Of a DNA stretch of 64,000 nucleotides, positions 9,185 to 56,805 are shown piece after piece. The translations under genes and the position numbers were made by a program. The stretch is from an uncultured Gammaproteobacteria bacterium (GTDB lineage Bacteria; Patescibacteriota; Patescibacteriia; Magasanikbacterales; GWA2-37-8). Location: contig CAZBWU010000001.1 of assembly GCA_964496095.1 (NCBI GenBank), forward strand, positions 121,474-185,473, given 5' to 3'. Below the pieces are notes generated by a model. That model did not search any database. It saw nothing but the letters and a program-made list of their open reading frames with translations, and was not told the DNA's origin. Position 1 is the first letter of the stretch. The number at the start of each line of letters is the position of its first letter.

Positions 9185-9538
9185 ATGAAAGATACTCAAA
9201 CAACTAAAAAAACAGTTACCGCCACCGAAGAAGTAAGCACTCGCATCAGAATCAAGGTTCGTGCTTATGATAATAAAATTATCGATCAAGCCGTTAAGAA
9301 CATAATTGAAACTGCTGAAAGACATGGTGCTACTATCGTTGGTCCGATTCCATTGCCAACTGAAAAGACCAAGTTTACTGTTAATCGTTCTACTTTCGTT
9401 CACAAAGATGCTCGTGAACAATTTGAAATGAGAGTCCACAAACGTTTGATTGATATTGTCAATCCTAATGCCAAAACTGTAGACGCTTTGATGAGCCTTC
9501 AAGTGCCAGCAGGTGTAGACATAGAAATCAAAATGTAG
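9185..9538 (+). CDS. rpsJ: 30S ribosomal protein S10
   Basis: [10 protein letters not shown]...VGPIPLPT...HKRLIDI signature; TTG at 9176 is an alternative start. Confidence 0.95.
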
Positions 9539-9540
9539 TT

Positions 9541-9606
9541 TGTCCCGATTTTGCTTCGAGCAAAATTGAGGATCCGCGATTCCGCGACAAAGGGGAATCG
9601 GGACAG
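9541..9606. repeat. Nested-hairpin palindromic intergenic element (outer stem GTCCCGATT/AATCGGGAC with inner hairpins)
   Basis: Inverted repeats read directly; inner hairpin ATTTTGCTtcgaGCAAAAT. Confidence 0.5.
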
Positions 9607-9642
9607 GTCCCAGCTGGCGTTGACATTGAGATAAAGATGTAA
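9607..9642 (+). pseudogene. Second copy of the rpsJ 3' end: encodes [11 protein letters not shown]-stop, identical at amino-acid level to the S10 C-terminus but with ~10 synonymous substitutions; different frame, no start codon
   Basis: gtcccagctggcgttgacattgagataaagatgtaa versus rpsJ gtgccagcaggtgtagacatagaaatcaaaatgtag. Confidence 0.55.
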
Positions 9643-9653
9643 ACCCTTGACAG

Positions 9654-9682
9654 GTAATAAAAATTGTAGTAAAATCTAGATA
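9654..9682 (+). promoter_or_regulatory. Candidate promoter TTGACA-N17-TAAAAT driving the rplC leader
   Basis: Consensus -35, 17-nt spacer, AT-rich -10. Confidence 0.5.
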
Positions 9683-9790
9683 AATAAAAAAGTTTGTTCA
9701 GACTGAGTAAATAAGATCTAAAAGCCCTGATATTACTGAATATTTAAGACGGGCGAAGAAAACATTTACAAGGTCAGAAAAAACTGGAGG

Positions 9791-9884
9791 AAAAATATTT
9801 AACAATTCACCCAGTGAAATAATTCCGATAAAATCGGAATTGCCACAAAGTGGCATTTCACAGGGTAAACAAATTAAGCCATTC
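9791..9884 (+). ncRNA. Conserved structured leader RNA motif, copy 1 (three-way junction: 10-bp closing stem CCAGTGAAAT/ATTTCACAGG, hairpin AATTCCGATaaaATCGGAATT, hairpin GCCACaaaGTGGC, tail GGGTAAACAAATTAAGCC)
   Basis: Second copy at 55486-55574 shows compensatory changes (GAT/ATC to GAC/GTC; GTGGC to GTGGT); preceded by a TTTAACAAT boxA-like string. Confidence 0.6.
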
Positions 9885-9945
9885 TAAAATTCCTTAAAGT
9901 AAGGATGTTCGCTTAGATATAAATTTGAGCGAACAAGCAAGAAGG

Positions 9946-10002
9946 CTAGAAACGAAATCGTGATTAAGTAAGATTAATTTCGCTGTCGTTTCTAGTTTTT
10001 TA
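9946..10002 (+). terminator. Leader terminator/attenuator upstream of rplC
   Basis: Stem CTAGAAACGAAAT...ATTTCGctgTCGTTTCTAG followed by TTTTTT; additional hairpin GTTCGCT...AGCGAAC at 9907-9934. Confidence 0.6.
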
Positions 10003-10038
10003 ATTAAGACTTATCTCGTATATCTGGATATTACTAGT

Positions 10039-10752
10039 ATGAAATTTATTCTAGGCAAAAAAATAGGAATGACTCAGGTATTTTTGGCAAACGGTGTCGT
10101 TGTGCCTGTTACTAAAGTGCAAGCAGGTCCTTGCCAAATCGTTGAAGTACGAGAAAATAAAAAAGCTGGCACCAAAGCTGTGCAAATTGGTTTTGAAGAA
10201 ACAAAAGAAAGCCGATTAAGTAAGCCAGAGCTTGGTCATTTGAAAGATTTGGATAAGGTAAGAAATTTAAGAGATTTCAAAGTTGATAATAATGCTGAAG
10301 TAAAAAGAGGTGACGCAATCACAGTTGAAACTTTTACAGTTGGTGACAAGATAAATGTAGTTGGTGAATCCAAAGGTAAAGGTTTTGCCGGTGTAGTTAA
10401 GCGTCATCATTTCCGCGGTGGTCCTGCTTCTCACGGTCATAAAGATAACTTGCGTATGCCTGGTTCTATCGGAGCTGGTGGTGTGCAGAGAGTCTTCAAA
10501 GGCATGAGAATGGGCGGACACATGGGTACTGATCGTGTGACAATTAAAAATCTTGAAATTGTACAAGTTCACCCTGAAACAAATATTTTATATATCAAAG
10601 GCGCAGTTCCGGGCGGAAGAAATGGCTTATTGCTTATTAGTGGTGAAGGCGAGTTGAAATTAAATGTTTCAAATCAAATTGTTCCTGCTCAAGCAGAATT
10701 AGCTGTTGAAGCCGTTGTTGAAAATCAATCAAGTAATGAAGTTCAAGTATAA
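10039..10752 (+). CDS. rplC: 50S ribosomal protein L3
   Basis: GKKIGMTQVF...KGKGFAGVVKRHHF motifs. Confidence 0.95.
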   Translation: MKFILGKKIGMTQVFLANGVVVPVTKVQAGPCQIVEVRENKKAGTKAVQIGFEETKESRLSKPELGHLKDLDKVRNLRDFKVDNNAEVKRGDAITVETFTVGDKINVVGESKGKGFAGVVKRHHFRGGPASHGHKDNLRMPGSIGAGGVQRVFKGMRMGGHMGTDRVTIKNLEIVQVHPETNILYIKGAVPGGRNGLLLISGEGELKLNVSNQIVPAQAELAVEAVVENQSSNEVQV

Positions 10753-27156: not shown

Positions 27157-27238
27157 GCCGAAGTGGCGGAATTGGTAGACGCACACGACTCAAAATCGTG
27201 CGGAGAAATCCATGAGAGTTCGATTCTCTCCTTCGGCA
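27157..27238 (+). tRNA. tRNA-Leu (anticodon CAA), long variable arm, CCA not encoded
   Basis: Acceptor GCCGAAG/CTTCGGC, anticodon stem CACGA/TCGTG, loop CTCAAAA, T-arm GAGAGTTCGATTCTCTC. Confidence 0.9.
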
Positions 27239-47976: not shown

Positions 47977-48054
47977 TTTCTAGCATTGACAAAATGACTT
48001 AGAGTGGCTATTATACCTCTATAAGAACCGAGAAATCGGCGATTTTGCGTATTT

Positions 48055-48107
48055 ACCCTGTTAAATGTCGCTTTGCGACACCCGACCTTGTCGGGATTTA
48101 ACAGGGT
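48055..48107. repeat. Nested-hairpin palindromic element (outer ACCCTGTTAAAT/ATTTAACAGGGT; inner GTCGCtttGCGAC and CCCGACcttGTCGGG)
   Basis: Read directly; shares a CCCGAC...GTCGGG hairpin with the element at 23779. Confidence 0.55.
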
Positions 48108-48124
48108 AAACCTATTAATAAATT

Positions 48125-55340: not shown

Positions 55341-55452
55341 GATGATGTCAGCGGAGCGATGCTGACGGCCAGGCACAAAGCCCAGGGCGCCGTCGCTCCG
55401 GCCCCGCATTATCCTTATCAATACTGGTAATGATAATCTAGGGCCTAAATTT

Positions 55453-55481
55453 GACAGTTTTGTCCATATATAGTATAATTT
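55453..55481 (+). promoter_or_regulatory. Consensus sigma70 promoter TTGACA-N17-TATAAT for the rpsA leader
   Basis: Exact hexamers, 17-nt spacer. Confidence 0.7.
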
Positions 55482-55485
55482 AGGT

Positions 55486-55574
55486 ATTAAAAATATTGAC
55501 CCAGTGAAATAATTCCGACCAAGTCGGAATTGCCACAGAGTGGTATTTCACGGGGTAAACCAATTAAGCCCTTC
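55486..55574 (+). ncRNA. Conserved structured leader RNA motif, copy 2 (upstream of rpsA)
   Basis: About 85% identical to 9791-9884 with compensatory base-pair changes in two helices. Confidence 0.6.
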
Positions 55575-55641
55575 CAATTTAGAGAAGAGCACCCGTAGCC
55601 AATTTATTGGCAGGGATAAGGAGTATTTTTTTGTTAAATAT

Positions 55642-56805
55642 ATGTCAGAAGAAAAAAACCAAAAAGAAGTTCAGGACTTCAAAACCCTGCTCGCGTCTTA
55701 TCAACTTACCATTCCAAAAGAAGGGGATGTTGTTAAGTGTAAAATAATTTCTATCGACAAAGGTGAAGTGCATGTAGACATCGAGGGTTTGACTGTGGGT
55801 GTGGTTCGTGGACGAGAATTGTTTGCCGAGTCCAAGGAATACATGAGTCTAAAAGTGGGCGACGAAGTAGAGGCCACTGTTTTGGATCTAGAAAATGAAA
55901 ATGGCGAAATGGAATTATCATTCCGCATTGCCGGTTATCAACGCGCTTGGGGTAATGTCAAGAAATGGATGCAAGACAATATTACTATCAAAGGAAAAGT
56001 GTTGGCTGCTAATAAAGGTGGTTTGATGATGCAGGTAGAAGGCTTGGCTGGTTTTATGCCAGTTTCTCAGCTTAACCCTGATCACTACCCAAGAGTTACA
56101 GGTGGCGACAAAAATCGTATTTTAGAAAAATTACGAGAATTGATGAATAAAGAATTAGAAGTGAAAGTAATTGATGTTAATGAGAAAGAAGAAAAATTAA
56201 TCGTTTCTGAAAAAGCCGTTTGGGAAGATGCTCAAAAGACTGTTTTGGAATCATACAAAGTTGGCGACGCAGTAGAAGGAGAGATCTCTGCTTTAACTTC
56301 CTTTGGCGCCTTTGTGAAATTTGGTCAAGACTTAGAAGGTTTGGTTCATATTTCCGAAATCGCTTGGCAGCGTATTGATCATCCTAAGGATATTCTCAAA
56401 GTGGGTGATAAGGTTAAAGCTCAAATTATCCAACTCGACAGATCCAAGATTTATTTGTCTATCAAACGTTTGGTAGATGATCCATGGAAGACTGTAAAGG
56501 ATAAATATAAAGTTGGCGACAAGGTTGAAGGTAAGATTTTGAAGATTGAACCGTTTGGTTTGATGGTTGCCTTGGACAAAGACATTCACGGCTTGGCTCA
56601 CATCTCTGAGTTAGCTGATGAAGGTATTACCAATATCTCCGAGAAGTTCAAGATCGGTCAAACTACTGACTTTGAAGTTGTTTCCTTAGAACCACCAGAG
56701 CACCGATTAGGTTTGAGATTATATGGTGTTAAAGGAAAAGCCAAAAAAGTAGAAGAAAAGCCAGTCGACGAAGCCAAGAAACCAGCTGAGGAGAAAAAGG
56801 CTTAA
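55642..56805 (+). CDS. rpsA: 30S ribosomal protein S1 (four S1 domains)
   Basis: Repeated S1 OB-fold motifs (G..V.G.V......G.FV); the ORF-track start at 55540 overlaps the leader motif and is unlikely. Confidence 0.9.
   Translation: MSEEKNQKEVQDFKTLLASYQLTIPKEGDVVKCKIISIDKGEVHVDIEGLTVGVVRGRELFAESKEYMSLKVGDEVEATVLDLENENGEMELSFRIAGYQRAWGNVKKWMQDNITIKGKVLAANKGGLMMQVEGLAGFMPVSQLNPDHYPRVTGGDKNRILEKLRELMNKELEVKVIDVNEKEEKLIVSEKAVWEDAQKTVLESYKVGDAVEGEISALTSFGAFVKFGQDLEGLVHISEIAWQRIDHPKDILKVGDKVKAQIIQLDRSKIYLSIKRLVDDPWKTVKDKYKVGDKVEGKILKIEPFGLMVALDKDIHGLAHISELADEGITNISEKFKIGQTTDFEVVSLEPPEHRLGLRLYGVKGKAKKVEEKPVDEAKKPAEEKKA

What the first reader, a model, noticed from the sequence alone, without database searches (positions are those of the whole stretch)
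9654..10005. Autonomous promoter-leader-terminator unit with a conserved structured RNA between rpsJ and rplC
S10 is separated from L3 by about 500 bp containing a consensus promoter and an ~85-nt element folding as a three-way junction: a 10-bp closing stem and two hairpins. An intrinsic terminator follows before the rplC ATG. The motif recurs at 55486-55574 in front of rpsA with compensatory substitutions (AATTCCGAT/ATCGGAATT to AATTCCGAC/GTCGGAATT; GCCAC/GTGGC to GCCAC/GTGGT). That pattern indicates selection on RNA pairing rather than on sequence. A promoter, structured leader and attenuator is the layout of r-protein autoregulatory leaders, such as L4-controlled attenuation of the E. coli S10 operon, but this sequence matches no leader or riboswitch I can recall. 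A boxA-like string TATTTAACAATTCA directly precedes copy 1 and sits next to the nusE homolog rpsJ.
Basis: partly seen in the sequence, partly recalled or inferred. Interest (0 to 1): 0.85.

Follow-up and report, generated by a model that had tools for sequence, protein, structure and literature searches.

The report
Mobile three-way hairpin in gene leaders
The "conserved structured RNA" is a 60-base palindromic insertion, most likely mobile DNA, that landed in the leaders of three genes in this genome, is missing at two of those sites in its closest relatives, and recurs in many bacterial phyla; it is not a ribosomal-protein regulator, although the leaders it sits in are conserved and may be.

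Summary
Two near-identical about 66-nt three-way junctions (3WJ) lie behind consensus promoters before rplC (9805-9870) and rpsA (55495-55560), and they differ by pair-preserving changes.

The interpretation mostly fails. Five relatives keep the promoter, structured leader and terminator before rplC but lack the 3WJ. The closest one (L3 92% identical) shows a clean 60-nt empty site. Four relatives, including one with S1 99% identical, lack it before rpsA. There is no target-site duplication.

The same arms (…CCCAGTGAAAT / ATTTCACnGGGTAAAC) enclose at least 10 unrelated pairs of inner hairpins in about 40 loci: CPR, Bacteroidota, Desulfobacterota, Bdellovibrionales, Cloacimonadota and phage-like contigs. 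Copies occur in both orientations, nested, in tandem and several per genome. They also sit in frame inside genes (KsgA, a glycosyltransferase). No Rfam family matches, and no transposase lies nearby.

Best reading: a non-autonomous miniature palindromic mobile element riding passively in 5' leaders. How it moves is unknown. The host rplC attenuator-like leader and the covarying rpsA leader are the real regulatory candidates.

The parts
9185..9538 (+). rpsJ (S10), last gene of the upstream tuf-rpsJ unit
   Evidence: Pfam Ribosomal_S10, E = 4.5e-36. Gene call of 117 aa in L001.
9539..9642 (+). Scar after rpsJ: a 68-nt structured spacer (9539-9606) plus a second copy of the last 11 codons and stop of rpsJ (9607-9642). 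Not part of the 3WJ element.
   Evidence: Both copies encode [11 protein letters not shown]. They differ at 9 nt, all synonymous. The remnant is closer to relatives than the live copy.
9647..9675 (+). Promoter of the rplC leader (TTGACA-17-TAAAAT)
   Evidence: 11 of 12 matches. Invariant in six genomes.
9676..9810 (+). Host rplC leader, 5' domain: a long irregular hairpin (about 9691-9785) with a variable tip, then a poorly conserved linker
   Evidence: Conserved blocks, with 5 of the 47 pairs predicted for the whole rplC leader showing compensatory changes. Folds as its own domain.
9811..9870 (+). 3WJ element, copy 1: the 60-nt inserted block. The palindromic arms read from 9805 (ATTCACCCAGTGAAAT ... 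ATTTCACAGGGTAAAC).
   Evidence: Absent from L061 and from L053-L057 at exactly this point. Fold. Covariance model (CM) score 62.8 bits.
9871..9939 (+). Host rplC leader, middle part: conserved box AAATTAAGCCATTCTAA followed by two variable hairpins
   Evidence: The box is conserved in relatives that lack the 3WJ. Hairpins.
9940..10001 (+). Host rplC leader: terminator-like stem (9946-9955 / 9986-9995, variable tip) plus T6 (9996-10001)
   Evidence: Stem and T-run invariant in six genomes. -26.5 kcal/mol, z = -4.2.
10039..10752 (+). rplC (L3), followed by rplD, rplW, rplB and so on
   Evidence: Pfam Ribosomal_L3. Gene order.
47986..48014 (+). Promoter-like site before uvrB (TTGACA-17-TATTAT)
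   Evidence: Read from the sequence. Not tested further.
48051..48111 (.). 3WJ element, copy 3. Arms TTTACCCTGTTAAAT / ATTTAACAGGGTAAA are fully paired, the inner hairpins are different, and it ends 14 nt before the uvrB ATG (48125).
   Evidence: CM scores 51.1 bits (+) and 43.1 bits (-). Fold -33.4 kcal/mol, z = -7.4. The downstream gene is UvrB by Pfam.
55451..55479 (+). Promoter of the rpsA leader (TTGACA-17-TATAAT)
   Evidence: Read from the sequence. Conserved in relatives.
55501..55560 (+). 3WJ element, copy 2: the 60-nt inserted block. The arms read from 55495.
   Evidence: Absent from L062, L063 and L072 (S1 99% identical; about 90% nt identity) and from L058-L060. The BLAST alignment breaks exactly here. 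CM score 63.5 bits.
55561..55641 (+). Host rpsA leader: box CAATTAAGCCC, hairpin A, hairpin B, then GGGATAAGGAG and a T-run
   Evidence: Consensus structure of 16 pairs, 9 with compensatory changes in 5 genomes.
55642..56805 (+). rpsA (S1, 387 aa)
   Evidence: Pfam S1 domains. Homologue P0121 is 387 aa.

Best explanation
The three-way junction is a copy of a small (about 60 nt) non-autonomous palindromic mobile DNA element, not a dedicated regulatory RNA.

Anatomy. An imperfect 11-16-nt inverted repeat, (G/A)TT(T/C)A-CCC-A-GTGAAAY ... RTTTCAC-N-GGG-TAAAC, encloses two short hairpins that abut each other.

In this genome. Copies were inserted into the transcribed leaders of rplC and rpsA, at the same point just 5' of a box (AAATTAAGCC) that both leaders already shared. 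A diverged copy lies in the uvrB leader.

When the leaders are transcribed, the insert should fold as a separate, stable domain. It leaves the neighbouring conserved structures intact: the rplC 5' hairpin and terminator, and the two rpsA hairpins. Its effect on expression is probably neutral or mild, at most extra structure near the 5' end.

Shown: insertion polymorphism, absence of a target-site duplication, a multi-copy family spanning several phyla, and tolerance inside reading frames.

Inferred: movement depends on an enzyme supplied in trans that recognises the conserved arms, probably in a folded single strand, since the inner hairpins keep pairing while their sequence turns over. That enzyme was not found.

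The real candidates for r-protein autoregulation are the host leaders.
For: 1. Empty sites.
- L061 (L3 92% identical) reads ...AAAAATTTAC|AAATTAAGCC..., where the window has ...AACAATTCAC[60 nt]AAATTAAGCC...
- L062, L063 and L072 (S1 99% aa identical, about 90% nt identity) read ...AAAAATATTAC|TAACTAAG..., where the window has ...AAAAATATTGAC[60 nt]CAATTAAG...
- The BLAST alignments break exactly at the insert and nothing is duplicated.
- The more distant relatives L053-L060 also lack it, yet keep the leaders.
- The covariance model finds 3 copies in the window and none in about 60 kb held from relatives, some of it overlapping loci.

2. Family.
- An exact-pattern scan of one genome per species returned 49 loci. 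About 40 score with the model.
- They come from Moraniibacteriota, Liptonbacteria, Bacteroidota, several orders of Desulfobacterota, Bdellovibrionales, Cloacimonadota and Neomarinimicrobiota.
- Several MAGs are hit on 2-4 contigs, and single loci hold up to 6 copies.
- Three phage-like contigs carry a simple-hairpin variant.

3. Structure kept while sequence is replaced. Of 25 three-way-junction copies, 22 interiors fold on their own as two abutting hairpins. These interiors fall into about 12 unrelated sequence types, with mean z = -3.3.

4. Contexts.
- Both orientations, between convergent genes, nested and in tandem.
- In frame inside KsgA, as a 16-residue insert relative to PDB 6ifs, located exactly at the element.
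- Three tandem 36-nt units inside a glycosyltransferase.
- The subfamily closest to the window copies lies upstream of serS, between rpoB and rpoC, and before an unknown gene.

5. No functional signature.
- Orientation is random relative to GC skew (17 against 20) and to the majority coding strand (11 against 15).
- 138 neighbouring ORFs hit 156 Pfam families, none with more than 3 members.

6. No Rfam match at any threshold tried.

7. The insert folds independently within the full leader, and it is equally stable as single-stranded DNA.
Against: - No transposase or recombinase was found in the window or near any family member, so mobility is inferred from distribution, not from machinery.
- No empty site could be obtained for the uvrB copy.
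- Both r-protein copies sit at the same position relative to a box shared by the two leaders. This could reflect target preference, gene conversion between the leaders, or selection for a function.
- Roughly half of the classifiable family members lie in the sense orientation in front of a gene. Six of them end only 2-22 nt before the start codon. Co-option as a 5'-UTR module is therefore not excluded.
- Maintenance of the inner hairpins shows that something selects for structure.
- The family was collected with a pattern that fixed the arms, so their 'invariance' is partly imposed by the search.
Confidence: 0.8

Rival explanations
1. One reading: the three-way junction is a cis-regulatory leader RNA shared by the rplC and rpsA operons. 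A ribosomal protein such as L4 or S1 would bind it to control attenuation or translation.
For: Two copies sit in r-protein leaders behind strong promoters, and one is followed by a conserved terminator. The differences between the copies keep the pairing.
Against: It is absent from the same leaders in every relative examined, including near-identical strains. A third copy precedes uvrB. Family members occur in unrelated contexts, in antisense orientation and inside ORFs. The leaders are conserved without it.
Confidence: 0.04
2. The element is mobile but has been co-opted. As a stable, self-contained structure near the mRNA 5' end, or just upstream of start codons that lack a Shine-Dalgarno sequence, it would protect transcripts from 5'-end-dependent decay or insulate the start region. 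Insertions in leaders of highly expressed genes would then be retained.
For: All three window copies are in 5' leaders in the sense orientation. Elsewhere six copies end 2-22 nt before a start codon. The structure folds independently. From general knowledge, 5'-terminal stem-loops stabilise bacterial mRNAs (ompA, ermC, aprE leaders).
Against: About half of the family is not in that arrangement, and orientation is random relative to coding strand. Close relatives express the same genes without it. In rplC the element lies about 130 nt from the predicted transcription start, not at the 5' end.
Confidence: 0.15
3. It is a DNA-level site. Either it is a palindromic operator for a transcription factor, for example a DNA-damage regulon given uvrB, xth and dnaA as neighbours, or it is a recombination site of the integron attC or Xer type.
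For: The arms are conserved and palindromic. Some neighbouring genes are DNA-repair or replication genes. Folded attC sites also pair conserved ends around a variable terminal structure (own knowledge).
Against: The half-sites are 25-35 nt apart and are separated by hairpins that keep their pairing, which a double-stranded operator does not need. Copies occur inside ORFs, in tandem and nested. The ends do not fit the attC cores RYYYAAC...GTTRRRY (read from the sequences). No integrase or cassette-array layout is seen, and neighbours are diverse.
Confidence: 0.05
4. Only one true insertion happened. The second r-protein copy arose by gene conversion between the two leaders, using the short homology on either side (AAAAATATT ... 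AATTAAGCC), rather than by a second transposition.
For: Both copies are at the identical position relative to a box that the two leaders share even in genomes without the element. The two copies differ at only about 5 of 60 positions.
Against: The flanking homology is very short, about 9 nt on each side. The third copy and the family-wide spread need real mobility anyway.
Confidence: 0.2

Closest known systems
REP / REPIN elements mobilised by RAYT (Y1 HUH) transposases (PMC3116915, PMC2817692, PMC3733652)
   Same: Short, multi-copy, mostly intergenic palindromes. The hairpin is maintained while copies diverge. They are non-autonomous, leave no target-site duplication, and form nested or doublet arrangements.
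   Different: No GTAG or CGTC tag at the stem foot. The architecture is a three-way junction with two inner hairpins. Copies occur inside reading frames. The same arms are found in several phyla rather than in one lineage. No RAYT gene was seen in the sequence held.
IS200/IS605-derived palindrome-associated elements (PATEs) and single-strand transposition, as for IS608 (own knowledge)
   Same: No target-site duplication. An imperfect hairpin is the conserved feature. The three window copies follow T-N-AC, and both empty sites read TTAC at the junction, which resembles the TTAC target of IS608. The tandem arrays would fit insertion after the element's own ...AAAC end.
   Different: There is one composite palindrome instead of separate left- and right-end hairpins. 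No orientation bias relative to GC skew (17 against 20). The T-N-AC flank is missing in the Desulfobacterota subfamily and at the KsgA site. No Y1 transposase was found.
Rickettsia palindromic elements (RPEs) (review PMC10969869)
   Same: Palindromic selfish DNA that is tolerated in frame inside conserved protein genes as well as in non-coding regions. The mobilising enzyme is unknown.
   Different: RPEs are about 100-150 bp and confined to Rickettsia and relatives. This element is about 36-70 nt and occurs in several phyla. Sequence similarity was not tested.
Classical prokaryotic MITEs such as Correia, ERIC, Chunjie and QMITE (PMC10969869, PMC3184786)
   Same: Terminal inverted repeats, small size, AT-rich intergenic targets, transcripts that form stable stem-loops, and presence/absence polymorphism.
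   Different: No target-site duplication at the two sites where an empty allele is available. No parent IS with the same ends was found. The element is much smaller than most MITEs.
E. coli S10-operon leader with L4-mediated attenuation, and other r-protein leaders (own knowledge). This comparison concerns the host leader, not the 3WJ.
   Same: Own promoter, structured leader and an intrinsic-terminator-like hairpin directly before an L3-L4-L23-L2... operon. The unit is conserved across relatives.
   Different: Here the unit starts at rplC rather than rpsJ. There is no sequence or Rfam similarity. The regulator is unknown and nothing has been tested experimentally.

Membership tests
Ribosomal-protein autoregulatory leader RNA (the claim for the 3WJ) | Conserved at the orthologous leader position in related genomes | tested here: not met
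   Absent in L053-L057 and L061 at rplC, and in L058-L060, L062, L063 and L072 at rpsA. The leaders themselves are conserved.
Ribosomal-protein autoregulatory leader RNA (the claim for the 3WJ) | Restricted to 5' UTRs of r-protein or translation genes, in the sense orientation | tested here: not met
   The third copy precedes uvrB. Relatives of the element lie near or before xth, dnaA, purN, serS and rpoB-rpoC, between convergent genes, and inside KsgA and a glycosyltransferase. Orientation is random.
Ribosomal-protein autoregulatory leader RNA (the claim for the 3WJ) | Binds its r-protein, often by mimicking the rRNA site | not testable with these tools
   Needs binding and regulation assays.
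Ribosomal-protein attenuator leader (host rplC leader without the 3WJ) | Promoter, conserved structured leader and intrinsic terminator directly upstream of the operon, conserved among relatives | tested here: met
   The promoter and the terminator stem plus T-run are invariant in 6 genomes. 5 of the 47 predicted pairs show compensatory changes.
Any curated Rfam family | Score at or above the family's gathering threshold, or a plausible sub-threshold hit | tested here: not met
   The window at gathering threshold gives only a tRNA. Region 9500-10100 at E up to 10 gives only chance miRNA and other hits. Eighteen family loci give only a tmRNA.
Classical MITE (DDE-transposase derived) | Terminal inverted repeats | tested here: met
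   Imperfect 11-16-nt arms, fully paired over 15 bp in copy 3.
Classical MITE (DDE-transposase derived) | Target-site duplication flanking the insert | tested here: not met
   Comparing filled and empty alleles at two sites shows a clean 60-nt indel with nothing duplicated beyond an ambiguous 'AC'. The longest shared words in family flanks are only slightly above control, and they come from tandem repeats rather than from adjacent duplications.
Classical MITE (DDE-transposase derived) | A parent IS with the same ends | tested here: inconclusive
   None in the window or in about 360 kb of family loci. Whole genomes were not available.
REP / REPIN-RAYT | Conserved GTAG or CGTC tetranucleotide at the foot of the palindrome (PMC3733652) | tested here: not met
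   The arms start (G/A)TT(T/C)ACCC or, in Desulfobacterota, directly CCCC. There is no such tag.
REP / REPIN-RAYT | A RAYT gene in the genome, typically flanked by REPs | tested here: inconclusive
   A signature search for Y1 transposases and a Pfam survey of 138 neighbouring ORFs found none. Only fragments of the genomes are held.
IS200/IS605-type single-strand element (PATE) | Insertion 3' of a fixed tetra- or pentanucleotide without duplication | tested here: inconclusive
   T-N-AC precedes all 3 window copies, and TTAC sits at the junction of both empty sites. Other subfamilies and the KsgA site have different left flanks.
IS200/IS605-type single-strand element (PATE) | Orientation bias towards the lagging-strand template | tested here: not met
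   The top strand is on the G-rich strand in 17 loci and on the C-rich strand in 20. The proxy is noisy because the loci are only 8 kb.
Integron attC site | Core sites R'' RYYYAAC and R' GTTRRRY at the ends, in cassette arrays next to intI | tested here: not met
   The ends read GTTTACC... and ...GGTAAAC, the opposite arrangement, as read. No integrase or cassette-array pattern appears among the neighbours.
Rickettsia palindromic elements | Palindromic repeat inserted in frame in conserved protein genes | tested here: met
   A 16-residue insert in KsgA relative to PDB 6ifs, at the element. Three tandem 12-codon units in a GT4 glycosyltransferase. This is a resemblance in behaviour only; homology to RPEs was not tested.

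The most novel reading that the evidence does not exclude
This may be an undescribed family of about 60-nt 'three-way-junction' palindromic insertion elements that spans several phyla. The arms are conserved, the paired interior is freely replaced, there is no target-site duplication, and copies are tolerated inside essential genes. An enzyme that has not been identified would move it, acting on the folded strand. In small CPR genomes it may be partly domesticated as a 5'-leader module. Separately, the rplC and rpsA leaders it invaded would be two new r-protein leader RNAs specific to CPR.
Probability: 0.4. Interest if true: 0.6.

Novelty: new variant of a known kind. Interest (0 to 1): 0.45.

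Why it matters
For annotation. Repeats like this imitate the signature of a functional RNA: recurrence plus 'compensatory' changes. They will mislead motif discovery in CPR and sediment metagenomes. Empty-site comparison with close relatives is a cheap filter.

For mobile-DNA biology. The same 16-nt arms occur in CPR, Bacteroidota, Desulfobacterota, Bdellovibrionales and phage-like contigs. The interior hairpins are maintained, and there is no duplication and no known transposase. This points either to a very widely shared mobilising activity or to frequent horizontal spread, and it gives a concrete sequence handle for finding that activity.

For RNA biology. With the insert removed, two conserved, structured leaders remain: an rplC leader with a terminator and an rpsA leader with covariation. 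These are testable candidates for r-protein feedback in Patescibacteria, a group whose gene regulation has hardly been studied experimentally (own knowledge).

Tried and rejected
- Rfam, at gathering threshold and at E up to 10, on the window, the locus and 18 family loci: nothing relevant.
- Full-text search for the arm sequences: only chance primer matches.
- Searches on palindromic repeats in CPR and on MITEs: no description of this family.
- One preprint on ncRNA mining could not be read.
- boxA / antitermination idea: the string is not conserved in relatives and overlaps the element's arm.
- parS, Cra, LexA or ARG-box-like operators were considered because of the GTGAAA/TTTCAC half-sites. 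Rejected because the halves are outward-facing, 25-35 nt apart and separated by hairpins, and because copies occur inside ORFs.
- CRISPR repeat, type III toxin-antitoxin RNA, self-cleaving ribozyme, put-type antiterminator and tRNA-like RNase P substrate were considered from memory. None fits the conserved nucleotides or the in-frame copies. No test was possible beyond Rfam.
- Target-site duplication: apparent 7-13-nt direct repeats on both flanks in other phyla turned out to be tandem, mostly heptamer, repeat arrays around the element and not adjacent duplications.
- Transposase hunt: signature regexes, Pfam on the window's minus-strand and unassigned ORFs, and a Pfam survey of 138 neighbouring ORFs all found nothing.
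- Strand-bias test for single-strand transposition: no bias.
- Empty site for the uvrB copy: the only close relative's contig starts inside uvrB.
- A MAFFT alignment of the family could not put the inner hairpins in register. The covariance model therefore uses the arms only, and conservation of interior structure was measured per sequence instead.
Full report
**What is there**

The window comes from a CPR bacterium close to Candidatus Magasanikbacteria. The best L3 and S1 homologues carry that name.

rpsJ ends at 9538 and rplC starts at 10039. Between them lie:
- a consensus promoter at 9647-9675;
- about 130 nt of leader;
- the reported element at 9805-9870;
- a conserved box;
- two small hairpins;
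- a long terminator-like stem with six T at 9940-10001.

A second copy sits at 55495-55560, about 15-20 nt downstream of the predicted start site of the promoter TTGACA-17-TATAAT (55451-55479) and 81 nt before the rpsA ATG at 55642.

Both copies fold as a closing stem with one A·N mismatch plus two abutting hairpins. Energies are -27.5 and -27.7 kcal/mol, with z = -6.1 and -3.7. They differ by U-A to C-G in hairpin 1, by G-C to G-U in hairpin 2, and at loop positions. Three independent assemblies carry the rplC copy.

**A third copy**

A relaxed pattern, and then a covariance model built on the arms, find exactly three copies in the 64 kb. The third is at 48051-48111.
- Its arms are TTTACCCTGTTAAAT / ATTTAACAGGGTAAA and are fully paired.
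- Its inner hairpins are unrelated to those of the other two copies (GTCGC/GCGAC and CCCGAC/GTCGGG).
- The fold is -33.4 kcal/mol, z = -7.4.
- It lies behind a promoter-like site and ends 14 nt before the ATG of uvrB.

The motif is therefore not specific to r-protein genes, even within this window.

**Relatives keep the leaders but not the junction**

I fetched the rpsJ-rplC region of genomes whose L3 is 77-92% identical (L053-L057, L061). I also fetched the rpsA upstream region of genomes whose S1 is 90-99% identical (L058-L060, L062, L063, L072).

All keep a long rpsJ-rplC spacer with these features:
- the same promoter;
- a conserved 5' hairpin, with 5 of the 47 pairs predicted for the whole leader showing compensatory changes;
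- the box ATAAGCCAATCTAA;
- an invariant terminator stem plus T-run.

All keep the rpsA promoter and a leader of two hairpins, in which 9 of 16 pairs show compensatory changes. None has the three-way junction, and the model finds no copy in any of these loci.

In the closest relatives the difference is a clean indel.
- L061 reads AAAAATTTAC|AAATTAAGCC, where the window has AACAATTCAC[CCAGTG...GGGTAAAC]AAATTAAGCC.
- L062 and L072 (about 90% nt identity over 18 kb) read AAAAATATTAC|TAACTAAG, where the window has AAAAATATTGAC[60 nt]CAATTAAG.
- The BLAST alignments break exactly there.

Nothing is duplicated at the junctions.

**The element belongs to a widespread repeat family**

A scan of one genome per species for AGTGAAA-N30-55-TTTCACNGGGTAAAC returned 49 loci, and about 40 of them score with the model.

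- Taxa: Moraniibacteriota and Liptonbacteria (CPR), Bacteroidota, several orders of Desulfobacterota, Bdellovibrionales, Cloacimonadota and Neomarinimicrobiota.
- Copy number: several MAGs are hit on 2-4 contigs, and single 8-kb loci hold up to six copies.
- Closest subfamily: a metagenome scan for the window's own hairpin 1 found three more members with the same first hairpin but a different second one. They lie upstream of serS, between rpoB and rpoC, and before an unknown gene.
- Phage-like contigs: three carry a single-hairpin variant.

Of 25 three-way-junction copies, 22 have interiors that fold alone into two abutting hairpins with only the loops unpaired. The interiors fall into about 12 unrelated sequence types. 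Within subfamilies, loops vary freely and stems change through U-A, U·G and C-G. Structure is therefore maintained while sequence is replaced.

Other variants are a bare 36-nt hairpin, tandem arrays, and copies nested in the loop of another copy. One interior (L011) is the reverse complement of another (L022, L032) inside arms of the same orientation. This is what recombination between the inverted arms would produce.

**Contexts argue against a dedicated RNA function**

- Members occur in both orientations, between convergent genes, inside operons and in 5' UTRs.
- Two lie in frame inside conserved genes.
  - In L050 the element adds 16 residues to KsgA relative to PDB 6ifs, exactly where the DNA element lies.
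  - In L025 three tandem 36-nt units read PSEIQDKFHGVN-like repeats inside a GT4 glycosyltransferase.
- Orientation is random with respect to GC skew (17 against 20) and to the locally dominant coding strand (11 against 15).
- 138 neighbouring ORFs hit 156 Pfam families. None has more than three members and none is a transposase.
- No Rfam family matches.

**How it most likely works**

Shown:
- insertion polymorphism between close strains;
- no target-site duplication;
- multi-copy spread across several phyla;
- tolerance in coding sequence;
- conserved imperfect arms with interchangeable paired interiors.

Inferred: a non-autonomous element moved in trans by an enzyme that recognises the arms, probably on a folded single strand, because the inner pairing is maintained and the fold is as stable in DNA as in RNA.

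All three window copies follow T-N-AC, and both empty sites have TTAC at the junction. Together with the tandem arrays after ...AAAC, this recalls the behaviour of IS200/IS605 elements. But other subfamilies have other flanks, there is no strand bias, and no Y1 transposase was seen. I rate that specific mechanism at about 0.3.

Alternatively, the rpsA copy could have arisen from the rplC copy by gene conversion across the shared box.

In the transcripts, the insert is predicted to fold as a separate domain that leaves the host structures intact. Its effect is probably neutral. Because several family members sit just upstream of start codons, some co-option as a stabilising or insulating 5' structure cannot be excluded.

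The promoter-leader-terminator unit before rplC is real and conserved. It resembles in layout, not in sequence, the L4-controlled attenuator of the E. coli S10 operon (own knowledge). The rpsA leader shows clear covariation. Neither is in Rfam, and both are reasonable new r-protein leader candidates. The 3WJ is an intruder in them.

**Limits**

- Only a 64-kb window of the source genome was available.
- The family was collected with patterns that fix the arms.
- Gene calls in the loci are ORF-based.
- The empty site for the uvrB copy could not be obtained.
- No experiment was possible.

Noticed in passing
window 9503-9642: The last 11 codons and stop of rpsJ occur twice: at 9503-9538 in the live gene and at 9607-9642 as a remnant. 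A 68-nt structured spacer separates them (GTCCCGATT...AATCGGGAC, -30.7 kcal/mol). Both copies encode [11 protein letters not shown]. All 9 differences are synonymous, and the remnant is closer to relatives (3 differences from L061) than the live copy (7). This looks like a recombination scar where a diverged tuf-rpsJ allele replaced the native one, or a small insert that carries its own gene end.
   Followed up: partly
window 55561-55641; also L058-L060, L062: The rpsA leader is conserved, with two hairpins in which 9 of 16 pairs show compensatory changes in 5 genomes, followed by GGGATAAGGAG and a T-run. It is a candidate S1 autoregulatory leader and has no Rfam match. In L059 and L060 about 100 extra nt, with a second TATAAT-like box, separate it from the ATG.
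   Followed up: partly
window 9871-9887 and 55561-55577; relatives L053-L062: The rplC and rpsA leaders share a box AAATTAAGCC(A/C)nTC even in genomes without the 3WJ, and the 3WJ sits immediately 5' of it at both loci. Whether the box is a common regulatory signal, an insertion target or a coincidence is open.
   Followed up: partly
L051 4560-4690; L039 3560-3860; L023, L044, L007, L037, L045, L067; L073, L074: In other phyla the element is embedded on both sides in short tandem repeats, mostly heptamers: GCATGGG, CCGTAAC/ACTCGTAAC, TATAACTT, GAAAATT, AACATCG, GGTTCAG. These are not target-site duplications. Heptamer repeats upstream of start codons with a patchy distribution across phyla have been reported before (PMC4679880). 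No explanation was found here.
   Followed up: partly
L011 7925-7986 compared with L032 4433-4494 and L022 597-658: The same two inner hairpins occur in opposite order and orientation inside arms that keep their own asymmetry. The interior has apparently been inverted between the inverted arms.
   Followed up: no
window 9717-9760, with aligned positions in L053-L056 and L061: The tip of the conserved 5' hairpin of the rplC leader and the tip of the terminator stem are replaced by unrelated sequences of different length in each relative. These are further hot spots for small insertions or deletions in the same leader.
   Followed up: no
window 1-64000: GC skew is positive over the whole window and almost all genes are on the + strand, so the window probably lies on one replichore with genes co-oriented with replication. 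One tRNA with a long variable arm lies at 27157-27238.
   Followed up: no
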